A stretch of DNA of 64,000 bases. Source: a virus (taxonomy: Duplodnaviria; Caudoviricetes). This document shows, in pieces, positions 41,675 through 56,974 of this stretch. The stretch spans positions 70,902-134,901 of IMG/VR virus record IMGVR_UViG_3300031998_000017; one strand, written 5' to 3'. Every line of letters begins with the position of its first letter. Position 1 is the first letter of the stretch. The notes under the pieces are model-generated. The model did no database searches. It had not been told where the DNA came from and was given only the letters and a program-made list of their open reading frames with translations. Made by a program: the position numbers and the translations under genes.

Positions 41675-42357
41675 ATGAAAAATTTTTGTATTAAAGTTAG
41701 TTTATTGCTCATAATTATTTTACTTAGTTGCAACTTAGTATTTTATTTTTTTAAAGTTCCTGAATTAAGGGATAAAATATCAAAATCAAAGGCGGATTAT
41801 ACTGAATTATATCAAACTAATGAAGAATGCCAGTTTGGTTATACGCAGACATTACAAGAAAAACAAGAATTAGAGAATCAAATTGCAACTCATAAAGCAA
41901 CAATAGAAGAAAAAGATAAGGCTATTGCTGATAAAGATGCGCAGATTAAAAAACTTAATCAGGAGATAACTAACTTAAAAAAATAAAAGCTAGCTCTACA
42001 TCCAGCAGCGGGAACTATAGATTAACAAGTTTTTGGCCCGGGGAAGGAAATCCTTGCGTAGGAGCTAGCGGTTTATGTGCTGGTAATTTCCAACTTAATG
42101 ATAAAGGGTGGTATACATATAAAGGTAAATTAGTTGTTGCAACCGCCACGACATATTTATTAAATCAAGGTTGGAGTAAAGTCAATGGTATTATATACCA
42201 TAAATATTATGATGAAATACAAATAACTATTAATGGAACTACTTATGATGCTATTGTTTTAGACTCTTGCGGAGCTTGCATGAAGAAGAACATCATTGAT
42301 TTATATGTAAAAGATGGAGCTCATAGTATTACAACACAGATAACAGTAAAGCAATAA
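41675..42357 (+). CDS. Membrane-anchored coiled-coil protein extended by a -1 frameshift into a 3D-domain-like (cell-wall glycosidase) module
   Basis: 0-frame ends A AAA AAA TAA (41977-41986); -1 frame is open to TAA 42355-42357 with no early ATG and encodes YRLTSF...VLDSCGA...IDLYV. Confidence 0.7.
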
Positions 42358-44918: not shown

Positions 44919-45327
44919 GGGGTCGACTTGGTTTCGACTGGAGAAGGAAAGCATTAGAATACAAGTAGTAGGCAGTTACTTAAAAGGCATTATCAAAAAT
45001 AAATGGAAACATTTTAACAAAAATTGCTAATAAAGTTAAATCTTTATTCTCTTTCAACAGAGTTTCATTCGCGTAATGTTAAGCAGCTTCTAAGTAAGTA
45101 TCAGTGCAATCAGAGAAAACTTAGTCGTATTAACTTCAAGGATTGCTATTGTGTGTCAGTTACTATGCCAACCGCCACAATATCTATTTTTGCATAGCCG
45201 GCTCTTAAGATTGATATTTGGTAGAGAGTTTGAGTTCCTATGAAATATACAAAACTTGTAAGGTAAGAATGAGATTTCTAATGAATACTTTTTTAGGACA
45301 TGGGTTCAATTCCCATCGGCTCCACCA
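44919..45327 (+). ncRNA. ssrA: tmRNA
   Basis: GGGGTCG...GGTTTCGAC 5' end, T arm and CGGCTCCACCA 3' end with G3.U; internal tag ORF GNILTKIANKVKSLFSFNRVSFA*. Confidence 0.92.
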
Positions 45328-45329
45328 AT

Positions 45330-45404
45330 GTTCCTATAGTCTAATGGAGAGAACACGTGGCTACGGACCACGAGGTCTGGGTTCAAATCCTAGTGGGAAC
45401 ACCA
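45330..45404 (+). tRNA. tRNA-Arg(ACG)
   Basis: CGTGG-CTACGGA-CCACG, CCA. Confidence 0.92.
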
Positions 45405-45413
45405 TATAGTTAT

Positions 45414-45488
45414 ACGCCTGTCGTCCAACGGTTAGGGCTTACGGCTTATATCCGTACTATCGGGGTTCAAATCCCTGCGGGCGTACCA
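45414..45488 (+). tRNA. tRNA-Ile(TAT)
   Basis: TACGG-CTTATAT-CCGTA, CCA. Confidence 0.82.
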
Positions 45489-45655
45489 AGAGATAATAAT
45501 TTATTTATTATACACAGAGTTTTTCATTTAATTCTCTATAAAAAATTAGATGCTTCCTTCCTTTATAGAGCAGGTTCTGGTGTAACTGCGCATAGCTCTT
45601 TATATACATTTTTATTGATTTTTTAATAAAAATATTATATAATATATATAAGGAA

Positions 45656-46042
45656 GTGATAAAAATGGTAAAATTTTTTGATAATACAAACAATATGCAA
45701 GATTATGATTATGCATTTGGGCATGATTTCTTAACATCAATATTTGGTGAAGATAAATATAAGCGCAAGTATTCAATGACTGGCGATGGTATATATAACT
45801 TGCTATTGATAGATGATAAAATATATGATTTAAAATTAAAAGAGGCTAAATCTATGCTTGTTGAAGACCATAAGAAAGCATATAGAGATACTACTAAAGA
45901 TTACATAGTAGAAGAAATTAGAAAAGCTTTAGCAAATCGTGGAATTGAAATGACAAGCAATAGTGGAAAATTGATTACTTTTAAAAATAATGATAAAATA
46001 TTTAATGTAGAAATAACAAAAAAGGTTTCAATGCCTGAATAA
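45656..46042 (+). CDS. Hypothetical protein
   Basis: Own promoter, RBS. Confidence 0.65.
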   Translation: MIKMVKFFDNTNNMQDYDYAFGHDFLTSIFGEDKYKRKYSMTGDGIYNLLLIDDKIYDLKLKEAKSMLVEDHKKAYRDTTKDYIVEEIRKALANRGIEMTSNSGKLITFKNNDKIFNVEITKKVSMPE

Positions 46043-46107
46043 AAAGCACATACAGCAACTTTGAATTAAAAACCCACGCTTTATTGGATATTTAATGTTG
46101 TGCTTTG
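46043..46107 (+). ncRNA. CAGCAA stem element E2
   Basis: AAAGCACA/TGTGCTTT stem, ACAGCAA at 46052. Confidence 0.65.
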
Positions 46108-46127
46108 TTTGTTATATGTATTATTGA

Positions 46128-46185
46128 AAAGCGCTTGCAGCAATATTAGCCCAAACTTGTAAATTGGATACTATATGGCGCTTTG
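46128..46185 (+). ncRNA. CAGCAA stem element E3
   Basis: AAAGCGCT/GGCGCTTT stem, GCAGCAA at 46137. Confidence 0.65.
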
Positions 46186-46197
46186 ACTTTTGATTAA

Positions 46198-46290
46198 AAG
46201 ACGCATTTCAGCAATTTATATTTTGGTTAAAAGAAAATTCTGCAAATATTTTCCGATAAGGTTCAATTCCTTAAAATAAAAAGCGTCTTG
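46198..46290 (+). ncRNA. CAGCAA stem element E4 with tRNA-like arms
   Basis: AAGACGC/GCGTCTT stem, TCAGCAA, internal CTGCAAA loop and T arm TAAGG-TTCAATT-CCTTA. Confidence 0.65.
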
Positions 46291-46310
46291 ATATATATGT
46301 TACTTAGAGA

Positions 46311-46438
46311 AAGACATCCACAGCAAAACGAACAATGGACTCTAAATCCCGTTTATTATTGGTTCGAATCCAATCTCCCCCACCATGTTTTATGGGGGAG
46401 TAGCCTAATGGTAAAGGCGCGTATATTATGATGTCTTG
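46311..46438 (+). ncRNA. CAGCAA stem element E5 enclosing a circularly permuted tRNA (CUA anticodon)
   Basis: AAGACATC/GATGTCTT stem; order anticodon arm, T arm, CTCCCCC-ACCA, linker, GGGGGAG, D arm. Confidence 0.75.
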
Positions 46439-46803
46439 AGTACAAATAAATGACTATGAAGACCCTGTGAATAGCAACAGATGGGGTAAGTGAGTGTACG
46501 GCACTGAAGGTAAATGGCTGTTGCGATAGTCCGCGTTAGTAAGTAGCATTGAATAAATATATAAAAGCTCCTACCCATAGGGTGAATCCGTAGGTCTGTT
46601 GGTCAGGTATCGGTGAGGGCGGGAGACCATCTGGGGAATAGGTCGCTACTATCCCAATCCCTTATATTTATTCAATGGTGCTTACTAGCACCTATAAATA
46701 ATTCTCTGTGATGATTTTTTATAAACATCACTTCCAATCAGGCGGGACCAGGGATGGAGAAGGCTGAATACCGCTATATAAATTAGGAAAGTTCTCCGCT
46801 TAT

Positions 46804-46879
46804 GCCGGCCTAGCGCAATAGGTAGAGCAACTGATTTGTAATCAGTAGGTTGGGGGTTCGATTCCCTCGGTCGGCACCA
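46804..46879 (+). tRNA. tRNA-Thr(TGT)
   Basis: Cloverleaf, TTTGTAA loop, CCA. Confidence 0.93.
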
Positions 46880-46901
46880 TTTTAGTAGGTGATGACATAA
46901 A

Positions 46902-47495
46902 ATGATAAAATTGAGTGTAGTTATTACTAATTATAATAAAGTTAAATGGTTACCAAGATTGTTAAAAACTTTACAAAAGCAAAAAAATGATGATGTAGAA
47001 TATATTATTATAGACGATGCTTCTACTGATAATAGTCAATTTTTATTAAATAATCTTGATAAAGACACTTTTAAAGTTATATATCATACTAAAAATACAG
47101 GGATAGGTTTAACAAGACAAGAAGGATTTAATATTTCTAAAGGAAAATATTTAGTATATATAGATGGTGATGATAATGTCGCAGAAAATTATATAACTAC
47201 CTTATTAAGTTATACCAATCAAAATTATGATATATTAGAATTTGCTTACCAATTTTATCCTAATGGAAAGATACAAACCGAAAGAGAATATACTTTTATT
47301 TGAAATAAAATGATTAAAAAAGAATTTATAATAAAAAACAATATTAAATTTGAAGATGTTATTATGGAAGAAGATGGTCTTTTTATTAAAGAAATAAATA
47401 AAAGAAATCCTATCTACAAAATAATAGACAATTCAGTTTTATATTATTATAATACTTTATCTATTTCTTTAACTAGACCAATAGGTCATTGTTAA
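46902..47495 (+). CDS. GT2 glycosyltransferase (197 aa, one TGA=Trp)
   Basis: SVVITNYN, IIDDASTD, GKYLVYIDGDD; TGA forms the usual GT2 'WNK' motif joining two track ORFs. Confidence 0.88.
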
Positions 47496-49511: not shown

Positions 49512-50192
49512 ATGAAAAAAATACTAATGCTATTAGTAGTTATTAGTATGTTCGTAACTAGTAGTGCTTTTGCAGATAGTCAACAATATCATTTTGTTGT
49601 AAAACACATTTTTGATAGCACTGAAATAACAACAGTAGATGAATATGGTGCTGCTGGTTCAGAATATACTATTCAACCACTAACTAATCAAGAGATAGAT
49701 GGATATGATGATGGAATTTGAGAAGTTGCATATACAAGTATAGATGGCGGAAATTCTCAAATAGAAGAAAATTATGATAGTGTAATACTTTGACCTACAC
49801 GCGCATCTACAATTACTTTAATACCAGATGATACTGTTGTAGAATATCACTATGTGTTTAGTAAAAATGTTCATGTAATATATGAATGAGAAGGAGCACC
49901 TGAAAGTGTATCTTTACCTATTGATGAATATGGTTATAAAGATGGCGCATACACCAAAGAAACAGTAAATATAGACGAAACTTATAAAGCAGGAGATGTA
50001 GTTGAAGAAGATAATTATCTATATACATTTTCCGGCTGGACAAAAAACAAAAAAAATAATAAAATAATTATAATAAATGGTAATTGGGATAGAATTGAAA
50101 AAGAAATTGAGGAGGAACCAATAGTAGAAGAACCTATTATAATTCCACCAAAAGAAGATTATGTCCCAGAGCCACCACATACAGGCATTTAG
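49512..50192 (+). CDS. Secreted surface-protein-like polypeptide (226 aa, 3 TGA=Trp)
   Basis: Signal peptide MKKILMLLVV...AFA; YTFSGW adhesin-repeat-like motif; Pro/Glu tail ending PPHTGI; TAG overlaps the tRNA start. Confidence 0.7.
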
Positions 50193-50286
50193 GGGCTTAG
50201 TGTAATGGTAGCACAGCGGTCTTCAAAACCGTAAAGACGGGTCTCCAAAACTCGGGGTGTGGGTTCGAATCCTACAGCCCCTGCCA
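50191..50286 (+). tRNA. tRNA-Trp(TCA), UGA-decoding, with a second CCA anticodon arm in the variable region
   Basis: AGGGGCT/AGCCCCT acceptor, G73, CCA; GCGGT-CTTCAAA-ACCGT followed by CGGGT-CTCCAAA-ACTCG. Confidence 0.88.
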
Positions 50287-54797: not shown

Positions 54798-54827
54798 TAA
54801 GTTATTCAAAAATAAGATGGCGCGTTA

Positions 54828-54869
54828 TCCTAGTTTACAGCAAATTATTGCTATTGAAAAAATCTAGGG
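54828..54869 (+). ncRNA. CAGCAA stem element E7 (minimal)
   Basis: TCCTAG/CTAGGG stem, ACAGCAA at 54837. Confidence 0.5.
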
Positions 54870-55096
54870 CGTATTTAATAAAAACTTAAAGTGTAGACTA
54901 AGTGGCAATCAAGTCGCGGGAGGCGGATTAGCCGACCACCGCCGCAAGGTTAAAACGAAAGTGCAACTCTGGTAACGGAATGTCCCTTGTGAGGAAATCT
55001 AACTTGACCTAAGCTGCAAGATTATTTTTATTAAAGCCATCTAATTTTTTTGACAAAAAGGAAAAATTTTGATATAATAAATATATAAAAATGAAA

Positions 55097-55274: not shown

Positions 55275-55414
55275 ATTTTTCATTCAATTCCCTTTCCGGG
55301 CTCTACTATGCTTTAGTAGAGCTCTATTTTTATTTGTTGACTTTTTTTAAAAATTATTATATAATATATATGTATTAAAAATAAATCTTGAAAAAGATTA
55401 AAGGAGGAATTACA

Positions 55415-56974
55415 ATGGGAAATACATTATTACAATCTTTAATAGAAGATAATAACTACAAGCGCACAGAAAATGGTGCAGTAGCTCAAAAATCTACATT
55501 AAACGCAATATATGACTTATTTGCATTAGGCGGAGCATATAGAACTCGTTCAGATGATGACTGTATCTTCTTATTTAAAAAAGCATTTGAAGCTGATAGA
55601 ACATTAGCTATGAAATGTTTATTCTATCTTCGTGATATTCGCGGTGGTCAAGGTGAAAGAAGATTCTTTAGAGTTTGCTTTGATTGGCTAGCTAAAGAAT
55701 ATCCAGAAGTAGCATTTAAAAATATCGACAATGTACCAGAATATGGTAGATGGGACGATTTGTATACACTAGTTGGTTCACCTCTTGAAGCAGATGTATT
55801 TGACTTTATGAAAGCACAACTTATGAAAGATATACATTCATATGATAGAGGAGAAAAAGAGGGAGTATCACTTTTAGCTAAATGGTTAAAATCTGAAAAT
55901 ACTTCATCTGTTGAATCTAAGAAACTAGGTAATTTAACTAGAAAATGGTTCCGTCTAAGCCACAAATCATATAGACAAATCTTATCTAGATTGAGAAATA
56001 GAATCAACATTGTTGAAACACTAATGTCTCAAAATAGATGGGACGAAATAGAGTTTGAAAAGTTGCCATCAAAAGCTGGTTTAATATACAGAAACGCATT
56101 CGCGCATAATGATGTTACAGCTGAAAGATATGCAAACTTCATGACAGATAAAGATACTAAGGTTAATGCCGGAACTCTTTATCCATATGATATTGTTAAC
56201 AAAGTAACTAACAAACTAAGCTGGAGAAGCCTAAATCTTGATGCTGTTGAAAGAGCAACAATCAACAAATATTGGGAAAATCAAATTGATTATTTCAATG
56301 GCGCTGATTGCAAAATGCTAGCAGTAGTAGATACATCAGGTTCAATGGATAGCTCTTATGGAACTTCTGTTAAACCTATTGATGTAGCTATCTCTCTAGG
56401 TATGTATTGCGCTGAACGCATTCAAGGTGCTTTCCATGGTTATTACATTAGCTTCGCTAGCAGACCACAACTAGTTGCTGTAAACGGAGTAGATTTCTGT
56501 GATAAGGTTAAAAGAATTTACGAAACGAATCTTTGCGACAACACTAACTTAATTGCAGTATTCGACTTACTTTACAATAAAGTAACTAGCGGACAAGCTA
56601 GAGTTGAAGACTTACCAGACAAACTTGTAATCATTTCCGATATGGAAATTGACCAAGGATGTGGTTACTACTGGAATAACAACGGTAGCGCAATTACTGA
56701 TATGGAACGCGTTAGAGCTAAATGGGAAAGAGCAGGATTAAAAATGCCACAACTTGTTTATTGGAATGTAGCAGCAAGACATGACACAATCTTAGAAGAT
56801 GCTAATAATCAAGATATAACATTTGTATCTGGATGCTCACCAGTTATCTTCAAATCTGTTCTAACAGGTAAAACATCTATCGACTTAATGCTAGATATAT
56901 TAAACAGCGAAAGATATTCAAGAGTCGAAGGTGAAGCTGAAGGCGGATATCCATCAATGTATATACATAAATAA
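55415..56974 (+). CDS. Ro60/TROVE-related protein with C-terminal vWA domain (DUF2828-like)
   Basis: RTENGA, LFYLRDIRGGQGERR, YGRWDDL, AKWL, vWA MIDAS VVDTSGSM, ISDME, VYWNV, VSG.SP. Confidence 0.85.
   Translation: MGNTLLQSLIEDNNYKRTENGAVAQKSTLNAIYDLFALGGAYRTRSDDDCIFLFKKAFEADRTLAMKCLFYLRDIRGGQGERRFFRVCFDWLAKEYPEVAFKNIDNVPEYGRWDDLYTLVGSPLEADVFDFMKAQLMKDIHSYDRGEKEGVSLLAKWLKSENTSSVESKKLGNLTRKWFRLSHKSYRQILSRLRNRINIVETLMSQNRWDEIEFEKLPSKAGLIYRNAFAHNDVTAERYANFMTDKDTKVNAGTLYPYDIVNKVTNKLSWRSLNLDAVERATINKYWENQIDYFNGADCKMLAVVDTSGSMDSSYGTSVKPIDVAISLGMYCAERIQGAFHGYYISFASRPQLVAVNGVDFCDKVKRIYETNLCDNTNLIAVFDLLYNKVTSGQARVEDLPDKLVIISDMEIDQGCGYYWNNNGSAITDMERVRAKWERAGLKMPQLVYWNVAARHDTILEDANNQDITFVSGCSPVIFKSVLTGKTSIDLMLDILNSERYSRVEGEAEGGYPSMYIHK

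What the first reader, a model, noticed from the sequence alone, without database searches (positions are those of the whole stretch)
46311..46438. Circularly permuted tRNA with amber (CUA) anticodon nested inside CAGCAA element E5
Seen: inside the E5 stem the order is anticodon hairpin GGA-CTCTAAA-TCC (46337-46349), T arm ATTGG-TTCGAAT-CCAAT (46358-46374), 3' acceptor CTCCCCC+ACCA (46375-46385), 8 nt linker, 5' acceptor GGGGGAG (46394-46400), TA, and a Gln-like D arm GCCT-AATGGTAA-AGGC. The 3' half precedes the 5' half. Established: permuted tRNAs are known from some algae and archaea, and YrlA RNAs have a permuted T/acceptor/D arrangement but no anticodon arm. Inference: either a YrlA-like mimic that retains anticodon and CCA, or a precursor that is end-joined and reopened to give a conditional UAG suppressor. 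TAG is a real stop in many genes here, so constitutive suppression would be costly.
Basis: partly seen in the sequence, partly recalled or inferred. Interest (0 to 1): 0.88.

Follow-up and report, generated by a model that had tools for sequence, protein, structure and literature searches.

The report
Scrambled tRNA mimic beside phage Ro60-like gene
The "permuted amber tRNA" is real DNA, but it is best read as a phage relative of bacterial Y RNAs (tRNA look-alikes that partner the RNA-surveillance protein Ro60) that unusually keeps a whole anticodon arm and a CCA tail, and its CUA triplet is not conserved, so it is very unlikely to be a dedicated stop-codon suppressor.

Summary
At 46311-46438 a complete tRNA is encoded in permuted order inside an 8-bp closing stem that carries an ACAGCAA motif. 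De-permuting it in silico gives a perfect 77-nt cloverleaf, tRNA(CUA); the break lies inside the anticodon stem (nt 28|29).

The element is not unique. Dozens of related viral and metagenomic contigs carry it, with strong covariation. It sits on the same strand as, and usually upstream of, a DUF2828/DUF7788 gene whose predicted fold matches Ro60 over its full length. The layout is that of YrlA Y RNAs; M. smegmatis YrlA is already known to be cut by RNase P and given CCA.

E5 belongs to a minority subclass that encodes NCCA and keeps a split 5-bp anticodon-like arm. The triplet differs in every homologue. A 97%-identical relative differs from E5 only at anticodon positions 34 and 35 (CUA versus UAA). 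TAG is an ordinary stop here; TGA is the recoded codon. No RNA ligase was found.

The scan has found this RNA-protein family before on other DNA.

The parts
46311..46318 (+). 5' strand of the closing stem ('handle'), AAGACATC. The base AGAC is conserved across the family.
   Evidence: Pairs with 46430-46437. Closing stem is 88.6% paired with compensatory changes in 4 pairs across 11 homologues.
46320..46326 (+). ACAGCAA handle motif, directly 3' of the closing stem's 5' strand.
   Evidence: A, C, G, C, A are invariant in alignment A2. The motif is present in 44 of the 58 parsed family members (33+11 handle-bearing versus 7+7 without), with 16 more left unparsed. Variants are ACTGCAA, ACAGCTA and ACAGTAA.
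46327..46336 (+). Single-stranded linker between the handle motif and the hairpin.
   Evidence: Not conserved in homologues.
46337..46349 (+). Anticodon-like hairpin GGA-CTCTAAA-TCC (tRNA positions 29-41). The triplet CTA lies at 46342-46344.
   Evidence: L115 differs only at 46342 and 46343, giving TAA. The loop frame N-U-NNN-A-A recurs in homologues with different triplets.
46350..46351 (+). CG (tRNA positions 42-43) that pairs with CG at 46420-46421 to complete a 5-bp anticodon stem.
   Evidence: The same split CG:CG is seen in L006 (two elements), L033, L060, L085, L008 and Gardann.
46352..46357 (+). Variable-loop equivalent (6 nt).
46358..46374 (+). T arm ATTGG-TTCGAAT-CCAAT.
   Evidence: 100% paired, with 4 of 5 pairs covarying.
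46375..46385 (+). 3' acceptor strand CTCCCCC, discriminator A, and encoded CCA.
   Evidence: Matched by the permuted-tmRNA and cyanobacterial tmRNA models below threshold. All 7 acceptor pairs covary.
46386..46393 (+). 8-nt linker closing the acceptor stem. It is predicted to be removed if RNase P cuts at 46393|46394.
   Evidence: Linker length is 1-22 nt in the CCA-type homologues listed.
46394..46402 (+). 5' acceptor strand GGGGGAG plus U8 and A9.
46403..46419 (+). D arm GCCT-AATGGTAA-AGGC (with G18 G19) and G26.
   Evidence: Aligns to the D arm of the YrlA model.
46420..46421 (+). CG (tRNA positions 27-28), the partner of 46350-46351.
46422..46429 (+). Single-stranded linker back to the closing stem.
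46430..46438 (+). 3' strand of the closing stem, GATGTCTT, plus the conserved G (family consensus GTCT-T/A-G).
55388..56974 (+). Gene for the DUF2828 + DUF7788 (vWA) protein with a predicted Ro60 fold. It is the inferred protein partner and lies 9 kb downstream on the same strand.
   Evidence: Pfam hits. Foldseek top 12 PDB hits are all Ro60/TROVE over full length, E 6e-7 to 7e-6. Family-level linkage to the RNA.

Best explanation
E5 is a Y-RNA-like tRNA mimic of the YrlA type. It has a stem-closed 'handle' (AGAC.../...GUCUUG stem plus ACAGCAA) that carries a circularly permuted tRNA body. It is most likely the RNA partner of the phage's Ro60-like DUF2828/vWA protein. E5 belongs to a minority 'full tRNA' subclass that keeps a 7-bp acceptor stem, discriminator and CCA, plus a complete anticodon arm assembled as a three-way junction. 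In that junction a 3-bp hairpin stacks on a 2-bp CG:CG helix, and the handle emerges between nt 28 and 29. It is probably co-transcribed with the tRNA array. Like M. smegmatis YrlA, it is then likely cut by RNase P at 46393|46394 and trimmed to CCA at 46385. That would give a two-piece RNA held together by the acceptor stem, the tertiary core and the handle. The 5' piece would be about 75 nt, ending in CCA, and the 3' piece about 45 nt. The CUA triplet is one state of a fast-changing loop rather than a dedicated amber-suppressor anticodon. Shown here: the anatomy, family membership, covariation, genomic linkage, the Ro60 fold prediction, non-conservation of CUA, and the absence of TAG recoding. 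Inferred: binding to the Ro60-like protein, RNase P and 3' processing, and whatever the displayed anticodon loop does.
For: Anatomy and the de-permuted cloverleaf. The YrlA model aligns to the T arm, closed acceptor stem and D arm over its full length. The pattern search and my architecture scanner find the same order with unrelated acceptor sequences in many contigs. Covariation is 92.4% paired, with 18 of 24 pairs showing compensatory change and 0 of 500 shuffles reaching it. The CM finds 76 hits in 1.44 Mb. In gene-anchored loci, 65 of 65 are on the gene's strand and 63 of 65 are upstream, and 41 of 78 loci have at least one hit. In L003 and L006 the element lies directly downstream of the DUF2828 gene. 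In L008 it lies 46 nt upstream of a canonical TROVE gene. RNA-first test: 22 of 30 contigs found by the RNA pattern encode DUF2828, against 0 of 14 control genomes. The protein fold matches Ro60, including a phage Ro60. Mycobacteriophage homologues are annotated 'Ro-like RNA binding protein' and have the same element next to the gene. Precedent: M. smegmatis YrlA has a 7-bp acceptor stem, is cut by RNase P and carries CCA (PMC4201824; bioRxiv 10.1101/312249). Encoded CCA and an anticodon-like arm co-occur (8/11 versus 5/33, Fisher p = 0.0008). Arms are far above chance (18/45 versus 3.4 +/- 1.6 in shuffles).
Against: The Rfam YrlA score is 22.7 bits against a gathering score of 69. The published Ro60-binding motif GNCGAAN0-1G is absent and ACAGCAA stands in its place. 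The protein gives no Pfam TROVE hit, so the Ro60 link rests on a medium-confidence model (pLDDT 67.6, TM 0.38-0.49). In this phage E5 lies 9 kb from the gene, so linkage here is operon-scale only. Low-scoring CM hits may include tandem tRNAs. The retained CCA, 7-bp acceptor stem and well-formed anticodon loop fit a charged, decoding-competent RNA just as well.
Confidence: 0.72

Rival explanations
1. Anticodon-loop display or decoy. This refines rather than excludes the best explanation. The full-tRNA subclass presents a genuine anticodon stem-loop on a tRNA body so that host anticodon nucleases, or other anticodon-reading proteins, bind or cut it instead of (or as a signal for) real tRNAs. The triplet changes quickly to track those host factors.
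For: The loop frame N-U-NNN-A-A is kept while the triplet differs in every homologue. The only two differences between E5 and its 97% relative are at positions 34 and 35 (P about 4e-4 for two independent hits, about 0.016 for one doublet). Triplets obey anticodon usage, with A34 in 1 of 17 (P = 0.007). The neighbouring tRNA-Arg shows anticodon-loop changes between the same two phages, as described for nuclease evasion by phage tRNAs (PMC10264068). A permuted Tyr-like subfamily keeps GUA and the long variable arm across diverged copies.
Against: It rests on one close pair and about 17 loops, some of them homologous. CUA matches no ordinary cellular tRNA, so it is an odd decoy. No nuclease or defence gene is tied to the locus. 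Most family members lack an anticodon-like loop altogether.
Confidence: 0.15
2. Functional amber suppressor. E5 is matured, either as a two-piece tRNA or after circularisation and reopening, then aminoacylated, and reads UAG on the ribosome.
For: A perfect cloverleaf after de-permutation, with canonical U8, A14, G18 G19, T-loop, U33, A37, a 7-bp acceptor stem and encoded ACCA. The phage already recodes another stop codon (TGA) and carries a tRNA for it.
Against: CUA is replaced by UAA in a 97%-identical relative. Only 1 of 17 homologous loops reads a stop, as expected by chance. TAG-split same-frame ORF pairs are at background level (5, against 32 for TGA), and three of them are followed by an RBS and ATG. 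No RtcB or Rnl ligase was found, and there is no BHB motif. In a two-piece form, an 8-bp helix with 10-nt and 8-nt tethers would protrude from the anticodon stem at nt 28|29, which would probably clash with the ribosome (inference).
Confidence: 0.05
3. The handle elements are processing or insulating modules of the tRNA operon, for example RNase III or RNase E substrates that separate mRNAs and tRNAs. They would be independent of the Ro60-like protein, and E5 would simply be one that captured a tRNA.
For: All elements sit in tRNA arrays on the transcribed strand. No terminator or strong internal promoter lies around E5. Handle elements carry unrelated cargos, including an OLE-like domain.
Against: This does not explain the RNA-first co-occurrence with DUF2828 (22/30 versus 0/14). 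It does not explain adjacency to the gene in small contigs and in mycobacteriophage, or the parallel with TROVE-linked permuted elements.
Confidence: 0.06
4. Assembly artefact or decaying rearranged tRNA pseudogene.
For: tRNA finders do not call it in its native order.
Against: An independent assembly is identical outside two loop bases. Compensatory changes occur in all four helices across many phages. The body is only 67% identical to any tRNA of the same phage, so it is not a recent duplicate.
Confidence: 0.02

Closest known systems
YrlA Y RNAs of bacteria and phages (Rfam RF02553; Chen et al. 2014, PMC4201824; structure in bioRxiv 10.1101/312249), especially M. smegmatis YrlA
   Same: A closing stem encloses the T arm, a loop-closed acceptor stem and the D arm, so both are circularly permuted tRNA mimics with tRNA tertiary nucleotides. 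The gene is linked to a Ro60-type ring protein. M. smegmatis YrlA has a 7-bp acceptor stem, is cut by RNase P and ends in CCA, giving two pieces that stay bound to Rsr.
   Different: E5 scores 22.7 bits against the 69-bit threshold. Its handle motif is ACAGCAA rather than GNCGAAN0-1G. Its inferred partner is DUF2828/DUF7788, which has a Ro60 fold but gives no TROVE hit. CCA is genomically encoded rather than added. A complete anticodon stem-loop is present, whereas YrlA is described as lacking an anticodon loop.
Circularly permuted tRNA genes of Cyanidioschyzon merolae and other algae/archaea
   Same: The 3' half precedes the 5' half, the acceptor ends are joined by a short linker after CCA, and de-permutation gives a normal cloverleaf.
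   Different: Those genes carry a bulge-helix-bulge motif at the junction. They are circularised by the splicing endonuclease and ligase, and they have fixed anticodons that serve translation. E5 has no BHB, no ligase was found, the junction lies inside the anticodon stem, and the triplet is not conserved. (The algal pathway is stated from general knowledge, not tested here.)
Two-piece (circularly permuted) tmRNA (Rfam RF04321, RF01851)
   Same: The gene order is T arm, 3' acceptor-CCA, intervening loop, then 5' acceptor. The loop is excised to leave a two-piece RNA with a chargeable CCA end. These models hit 46358-46402 below threshold.
   Different: E5 has no tag reading frame or pseudoknots, and it has a true D arm and anticodon loop. 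A standard one-piece tmRNA lies at 44919-45327.
Phage suppressor tRNAs of stop-codon-recoding phages
   Same: E5 has a CUA anticodon in a well-formed loop, in a phage that recodes a stop codon.
   Different: The recoded codon here is TGA, served by its own tRNA(UCA) at 50191-50286. TAG is a normal stop. CUA is absent from the closest relative.

Membership tests
YrlA (RF02553) | Permuted tRNA-like domain: closing stem, T arm, loop-closed acceptor stem, D arm, in that order, with tRNA tertiary nucleotides | tested here: met
YrlA (RF02553) | Reaches Rfam's curated gathering score (69 bits) | tested here: not met
   22.7 bits, E 0.007 on a 181-nt search. Homologues in L003, L006, L007, L008, L013 and Gardann also give no YrlA hit.
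YrlA (RF02553) | Ro60-binding motif GNCGAAN0-1G on the 5' strand of the closing stem (Chen et al. 2014) | tested here: not met
   The conserved motif is ACAGCAA. E5's ACGAAC at 46328-46333 lacks the flanking G residues and is not conserved in homologues.
YrlA (RF02553) | Genomic linkage to a Ro60/Rsr (TROVE + vWA) gene | tested here: inconclusive
   No Pfam TROVE hit in this phage. A DUF2828/DUF7788 protein with a predicted Ro60 fold lies 9 kb downstream on the same strand. Family-level linkage is strong. A TROVE-linked relative exists in L008.
YrlA (RF02553) | Bound by Ro60 in vivo | not testable with these tools
   Needs immunoprecipitation.
Circularly permuted tRNA genes (algal/archaeal type) | 3' half upstream of 5' half, with de-permutation giving a canonical cloverleaf | tested here: met
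Circularly permuted tRNA genes (algal/archaeal type) | Bulge-helix-bulge motif at the junction, and a ligase to make a circular intermediate | tested here: not met
   The junction is flanked by 10-nt and 8-nt single strands and an 8-bp stem. No RtcB or Rnl2 was found. The Rnl1 search was uninformative because its control rang nowhere.
Circularly permuted tRNA genes (algal/archaeal type) | Anticodon conserved among orthologues, because it serves decoding | tested here: not met
   CUA versus UAA in the 97% relative. Triplets are diverse in homologues.
Phage suppressor tRNA | The cognate stop codon is used as a sense codon in phage genes | tested here: not met
   TAG-split same-frame ORF pairs number 5, against 32 for TGA. 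TAG is followed by an RBS and ATG in 3 cases.
Permuted tmRNA (RF04321) | Tag ORF, pseudoknots, and the Rfam gathering score | tested here: not met
   23.6 bits against 47, and only the T arm and acceptor part aligns.

The most novel reading that the evidence does not exclude
The 'full tRNA' subclass to which E5 belongs is matured by RNase P and 3' trimming into two-piece tRNAs with a free, possibly aminoacylated CCA end. These stay tethered through the ACAGCAA handle to a Ro60-like ring. Their rapidly changing anticodon triplets are the working part: a programmable display that baits or senses host anticodon-targeting defences, or in rare states such as CUA reads a codon. That would be a phage RNP that weaponises tRNA mimicry.
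Probability: 0.15. Interest if true: 0.85.

Novelty: new variant of a known kind. Interest (0 to 1): 0.58.

Why it matters
Y RNAs and Ro60 are conserved from bacteria to humans, yet what the tRNA-like module of bacterial Y RNAs does is still unknown. This phage family extends the Ro60/Y-RNA pairing to a very large protein family: more than 8000 homologues and 710 cultured-phage records, including phages of Listeria, Staphylococcus, Mycobacterium, Bacillus, E. coli and Salmonella. Neither Pfam nor Rfam currently connects that family to Ro60 or YrlA. The E5 subclass is the most tRNA-like mimic so far, with a 7-bp acceptor stem, encoded CCA and a true anticodon loop whose triplet varies. That makes concrete experiments possible on whether such mimics are charged, and whether they meet anticodon nucleases or the ribosome. 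It also matters for annotation: the same element in mycobacteriophage Gardann is annotated as 'tRNA-Asn', so phage tRNA counts and codon-usage arguments may include such mimics.

Tried and rejected
(1) Searched for canonical Ro60 (Pfam TROVE), RtcB, Rnl1 and Rnl2 in the phage record and found none. The Rnl1 control rang in no genome, so that result is uninformative.

(2) A megablast of the tRNA region against cultured phages gave only trivial tRNA hits.

(3) A single-protein locus search found only 2 relatives. The alignment-based search was needed.

(4) My first closing-stem finder, which took the longest complement, picked wrong helices. It was replaced by motif-anchored boundaries.

(5) The first structure string had the closing stem one base out of register (37.5% paired). 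This was corrected. Model R1 was built with the shifted register, which lowers scores slightly but did not stop it recovering the family.

(6) Considered a tRNA-Pyl reading from ARAGORN's label. Rejected, because E5 has a normal 8-nt D loop with GG, a TTCGAAT T loop and two nucleotides between the acceptor and D stems.

(7) Considered recent duplication of one of the phage's own tRNAs. Rejected, with a best identity of 67%.

(8) Considered a group I permuted intron-exon arrangement. No group I hit appeared in a permissive Rfam scan of 45300-47000.

(9) The look-up of encoding contigs and the look-up of sequencing runs were closed, so read laying could not be used. I could therefore get no expression or end evidence and no further near-identical relatives.

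(10) The supplementary tables of Chen et al. 2014 are not held. I could not check which phages they had already listed.

Full report
WHAT IS THERE. The window is the 3' 64 kb of a 134.9-kb IMG/VR virus record with 31% G+C. It holds a 12-kb array of 27 tRNA genes and a tmRNA.

Read 5' to 3', its parts are:
- closing-stem strand AAGACATC (46311-46318)
- the motif ACAGCAA (46320-46326)
- a 10-nt linker
- the hairpin GGA-CTCTAAA-TCC (46337-46349)
- CG (46350-46351)
- a 6-nt variable region
- the T arm (46358-46374)
- the 3' acceptor strand plus ACCA (46375-46385)
- an 8-nt linker
- the 5' acceptor strand (46394-46400)
- TA
- the D arm (46403-46418)
- G, then CG (46420-46421)
- an 8-nt linker
- closing-stem strand GATGTCTT (46430-46437), followed by G

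The two CG dinucleotides pair. Joining 46421 to 46337 therefore restores a perfect 5-bp anticodon stem, and the 77-nt de-permuted sequence is called tRNA(CUA) by ARAGORN. The only amendment is that the break lies inside the anticodon stem (28|29).

IT IS A FAMILY, NOT AN ACCIDENT. I searched for the acceptor hairpin (3' strand-ACCA, 3-30 nt, 5' strand-TAG). This found the same permuted order in independent viral contigs and metagenome contigs.

A scanner that assumes nothing about sequence found further elements with unrelated acceptor stems. It requires a T arm, 7 nt, NCCA, a linker, and a complementary 7 nt. Nearly all of these elements are nested in the same handle: an AGAC.../...GTCT(T/A)G stem plus ACAGCAA.

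In an alignment of 11 such elements:
- the acceptor stem is 100% paired, with compensatory changes in all 7 pairs
- the T stem is 100% paired, with changes in 4 of 5 pairs
- the D stem shows changes in 3 of 4 pairs
- the closing stem shows changes in 4 of 8 pairs, with its base conserved
- overall 92.4% of cells are paired, against 66.5% in shuffles, and 0 of 500 shuffles reach the observed value; slid controls give 35-47%

A covariance model recovers 76 matches in 1.44 Mb of related loci. E5 is the only match in the window.

THE PROTEIN PARTNER. Pfam calls it DUF2828 + DUF7788, and neither a TROVE profile search nor a PDB sequence search hits it. An AlphaFold model built from 17 homologues has pLDDT 67.6. 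Its 12 best PDB matches are all Ro60/TROVE proteins aligned over 520-590 columns, with E from 6e-7 to 7e-6. They include D. radiodurans Rsr and the Ro60 of Thermus phage phiLo. vWA/MIDAS domains follow.

Linkage to the RNA holds in both directions.
- Starting from the protein: in 78 loci anchored on homologues, 65 of 65 model hits lie on the gene's strand and 63 lie upstream (median 4.8 kb, minimum 66 nt). 41 loci have at least one hit.
- Starting from the RNA: of 30 contigs found only by a handle + T-loop + CCA pattern, 22 encode DUF2828 (16 of 20 near-complete genomes). None of 14 control genomes does.

In L003 and L006 the element lies directly downstream of the gene. In L008, a phage with a canonical TROVE gene, two permuted tRNA-like elements lie just upstream of that gene, the nearer one 46 nt away.

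Homologues of the protein occur in 710 cultured-phage records. In mycobacteriophages they are annotated 'Ro-like RNA binding protein', yet they are DUF2828/DUF7788 by Pfam. In phage Gardann the model finds a handle-bearing permuted element right after that gene. GenBank annotates part of it as tRNA-Asn, and Rfam finds nothing there.

COMPARISON WITH YrlA. YrlA RNAs are described as circularly permuted tRNAs with loop-closed acceptor stems that lack a free CCA and an anticodon loop. The exception is M. smegmatis YrlA. It has a 7-bp acceptor stem, is cut by RNase P in vivo and in vitro, and acquires CCA. That yields 82-nt and 65-nt halves, and both are recovered with Rsr.

The Rfam YrlA model aligns to E5's T arm, acceptor hairpin and D arm, but scores only 22.7 bits against a threshold of 69. 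The published Ro60-binding motif GNCGAAN0-1G is replaced by ACAGCAA. E5 therefore works like a YrlA but fails two curated membership criteria. I file it as a new variant of that kind.

WHAT IS SPECIAL ABOUT E5. Among parsed handle-bearing elements, 33 have an acceptor-like stem closed by a short loop without CCA, and 11 encode NCCA.

A 5-bp anticodon-like arm with a 7-nt loop, U33 and R37 occurs in 18 of 45 CCA-type elements. Shuffles give 3.4 +/- 1.6. The arm is associated with encoded CCA: 8 of 11 against 5 of 33, Fisher p = 0.0008. E5 thus belongs to a distinct 'full tRNA' subclass.

In the convincing cases a 2-3-bp hairpin is completed by 2-3 pairs to the strand that follows the D arm, very often CG:CG. 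The loop frame is N-U-NNN-A-A. The triplet differs from element to element: CUA, UAA, GAA, GAU, UUU, GUA, GUC, UGA, AGG, GUU, UCU, UGU, UCC and UUC.

Only one of 17 triplets reads a stop codon, which is what chance predicts. A34 is avoided (1 of 17, P = 0.007), as in real anticodons.

The closest relative is metagenome contig L115, which is 97.3% identical over 45326-46561. It differs from E5 at exactly two positions, 46342 and 46343, which are anticodon positions 34 and 35. This turns CUA into UAA. The whole 400-nt array of handle elements has only five differences.

Between the same two phages, tRNA-Arg(ACG) keeps its anticodon but changes loop positions 33, 37 and 38. That is the pattern reported for evasion of anticodon nucleases by phage tRNAs (PMC10264068).

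A separate permuted subfamily resembles type-II tRNA-Tyr. It keeps GUA and the long variable arm across diverged copies. It also retains a duplicate of the 5' strand of the anticodon stem, which is the footprint expected of origin by tandem duplication.

IS IT AN AMBER SUPPRESSOR? The evidence says no.
- Same-frame ORF pairs split by one stop codon number 32 for TGA, but only 5 for TAG and 2 for TAA.
- Three of the TAG cases are followed at once by GGAGG-type ribosome-binding sites and ATG.
- A tRNA(UCA) at 50191-50286 serves the TGA recoding.
- CUA is not conserved.
- No ligase was found, and there is no bulge-helix-bulge motif.
- In a two-piece form, the handle would protrude from the anticodon stem at 28|29, which should hinder ribosome entry. 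This last point is my inference.

I cannot exclude weak or incidental suppression.

MOST LIKELY MECHANISM. E5 is probably transcribed with the array. There is a promoter-like site at 45615-45643 and no terminator nearby. It folds into an L-shaped tRNA body on a handle. RNase P probably cuts 5' of G46394, and the 3' end is probably trimmed to CCA46385, by analogy with M. smegmatis YrlA. The handle probably docks on the Ro60-like ring.

What the displayed, variable anticodon loop does is open. A bait or sensor for anticodon-directed host factors is the most interesting reading consistent with the data.

LIMITS. The Ro60 assignment rests on a medium-confidence model. The hypervariability argument rests on one close pair. 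Low-scoring model hits may include tandem tRNAs.

The scan has reported this RNA-protein family before on other genomes. My conclusions on the family agree with those notes, but they rest on the tests made here.

Noticed in passing
window 54816-55047 (OLE match 54818-55036): Another ACAGCAA handle element (stem AAGATGGC / GCCATCTT-like) has as its cargo a strong match to the conserved 3' half of OLE RNA (Rfam RF01071, model 285-595, 82 bits against a gathering score of 50). It lies directly upstream of the Ro60-like gene. An OLE-like domain in a phage, on a Y-RNA-like handle, is unexpected.
   Followed up: partly
window 45330-45404 versus L115: tRNA-Arg(ACG) keeps its anticodon between two 97%-identical phages, but loop positions 33, 37 and 38 differ (CTACGGA versus CGACGAT, losing U33). 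This resembles the anticodon-loop variation proposed to evade host nucleases.
   Followed up: partly
window 46440-46800: A G+C-richer, apparently structured stretch lies between E5 and tRNA-Thr and has no Rfam match. Against L115 it is the least conserved part of the block: there is no alignment over 46562-46662 and only 84% identity over 46663-46861, while the flanks are about 97% identical.
   Followed up: no
L097, L113, L114, L121, L126 (metagenome contigs): A subfamily of handle-bearing permuted tRNAs resembles bacterial type-II tRNA-Tyr. It has the loop CTGTAAA, a long covarying variable arm, the T loop TGCAAAT and ACCA. The 5' strand of the anticodon stem is present twice (GGA before the loop and GCGGA after the D arm), which looks like a footprint of tandem duplication.
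   Followed up: partly
L247 4027-4154 (Mycobacterium phage Gardann, KX507361 about 42085-42212): A handle-bearing permuted tRNA mimic (stem GGACUCC/GGAGUCC, motif ACAGUAA, hairpin CCA-CUGUUAA-UGG, split CG) lies right after the 'Ro-like RNA binding protein' gene. Part of it is annotated in GenBank as tRNA-Asn.
   Followed up: partly
genome G000 about 16-66 kb, + strand (mostly outside the window): TGA is used in frame in a block of + strand genes: 32 same-frame ORF pairs are split by a single TGA.
   Followed up: partly
L026 532-658, L030 649-780, L082 4586-4719: These composite handle elements have a GGTCTGAAAAACC hairpin, a T arm and a 3' acceptor strand. What follows looks like the 5' half of a Gln-type tRNA, including its own anticodon arm (CTTTGAC), whose 3' strand pairs with the handle. 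The acceptor strands are not complementary. The architecture is unclear.
   Followed up: no
L008 2700-2972 (minus strand): A phage with a canonical TROVE gene has two or three permuted tRNA-like elements in a row upstream of that gene. They share a GTTACTTC(G/A)(A/C)AT motif instead of ACAGCAA, which may be the handle counterpart for a true Ro60.
   Followed up: no
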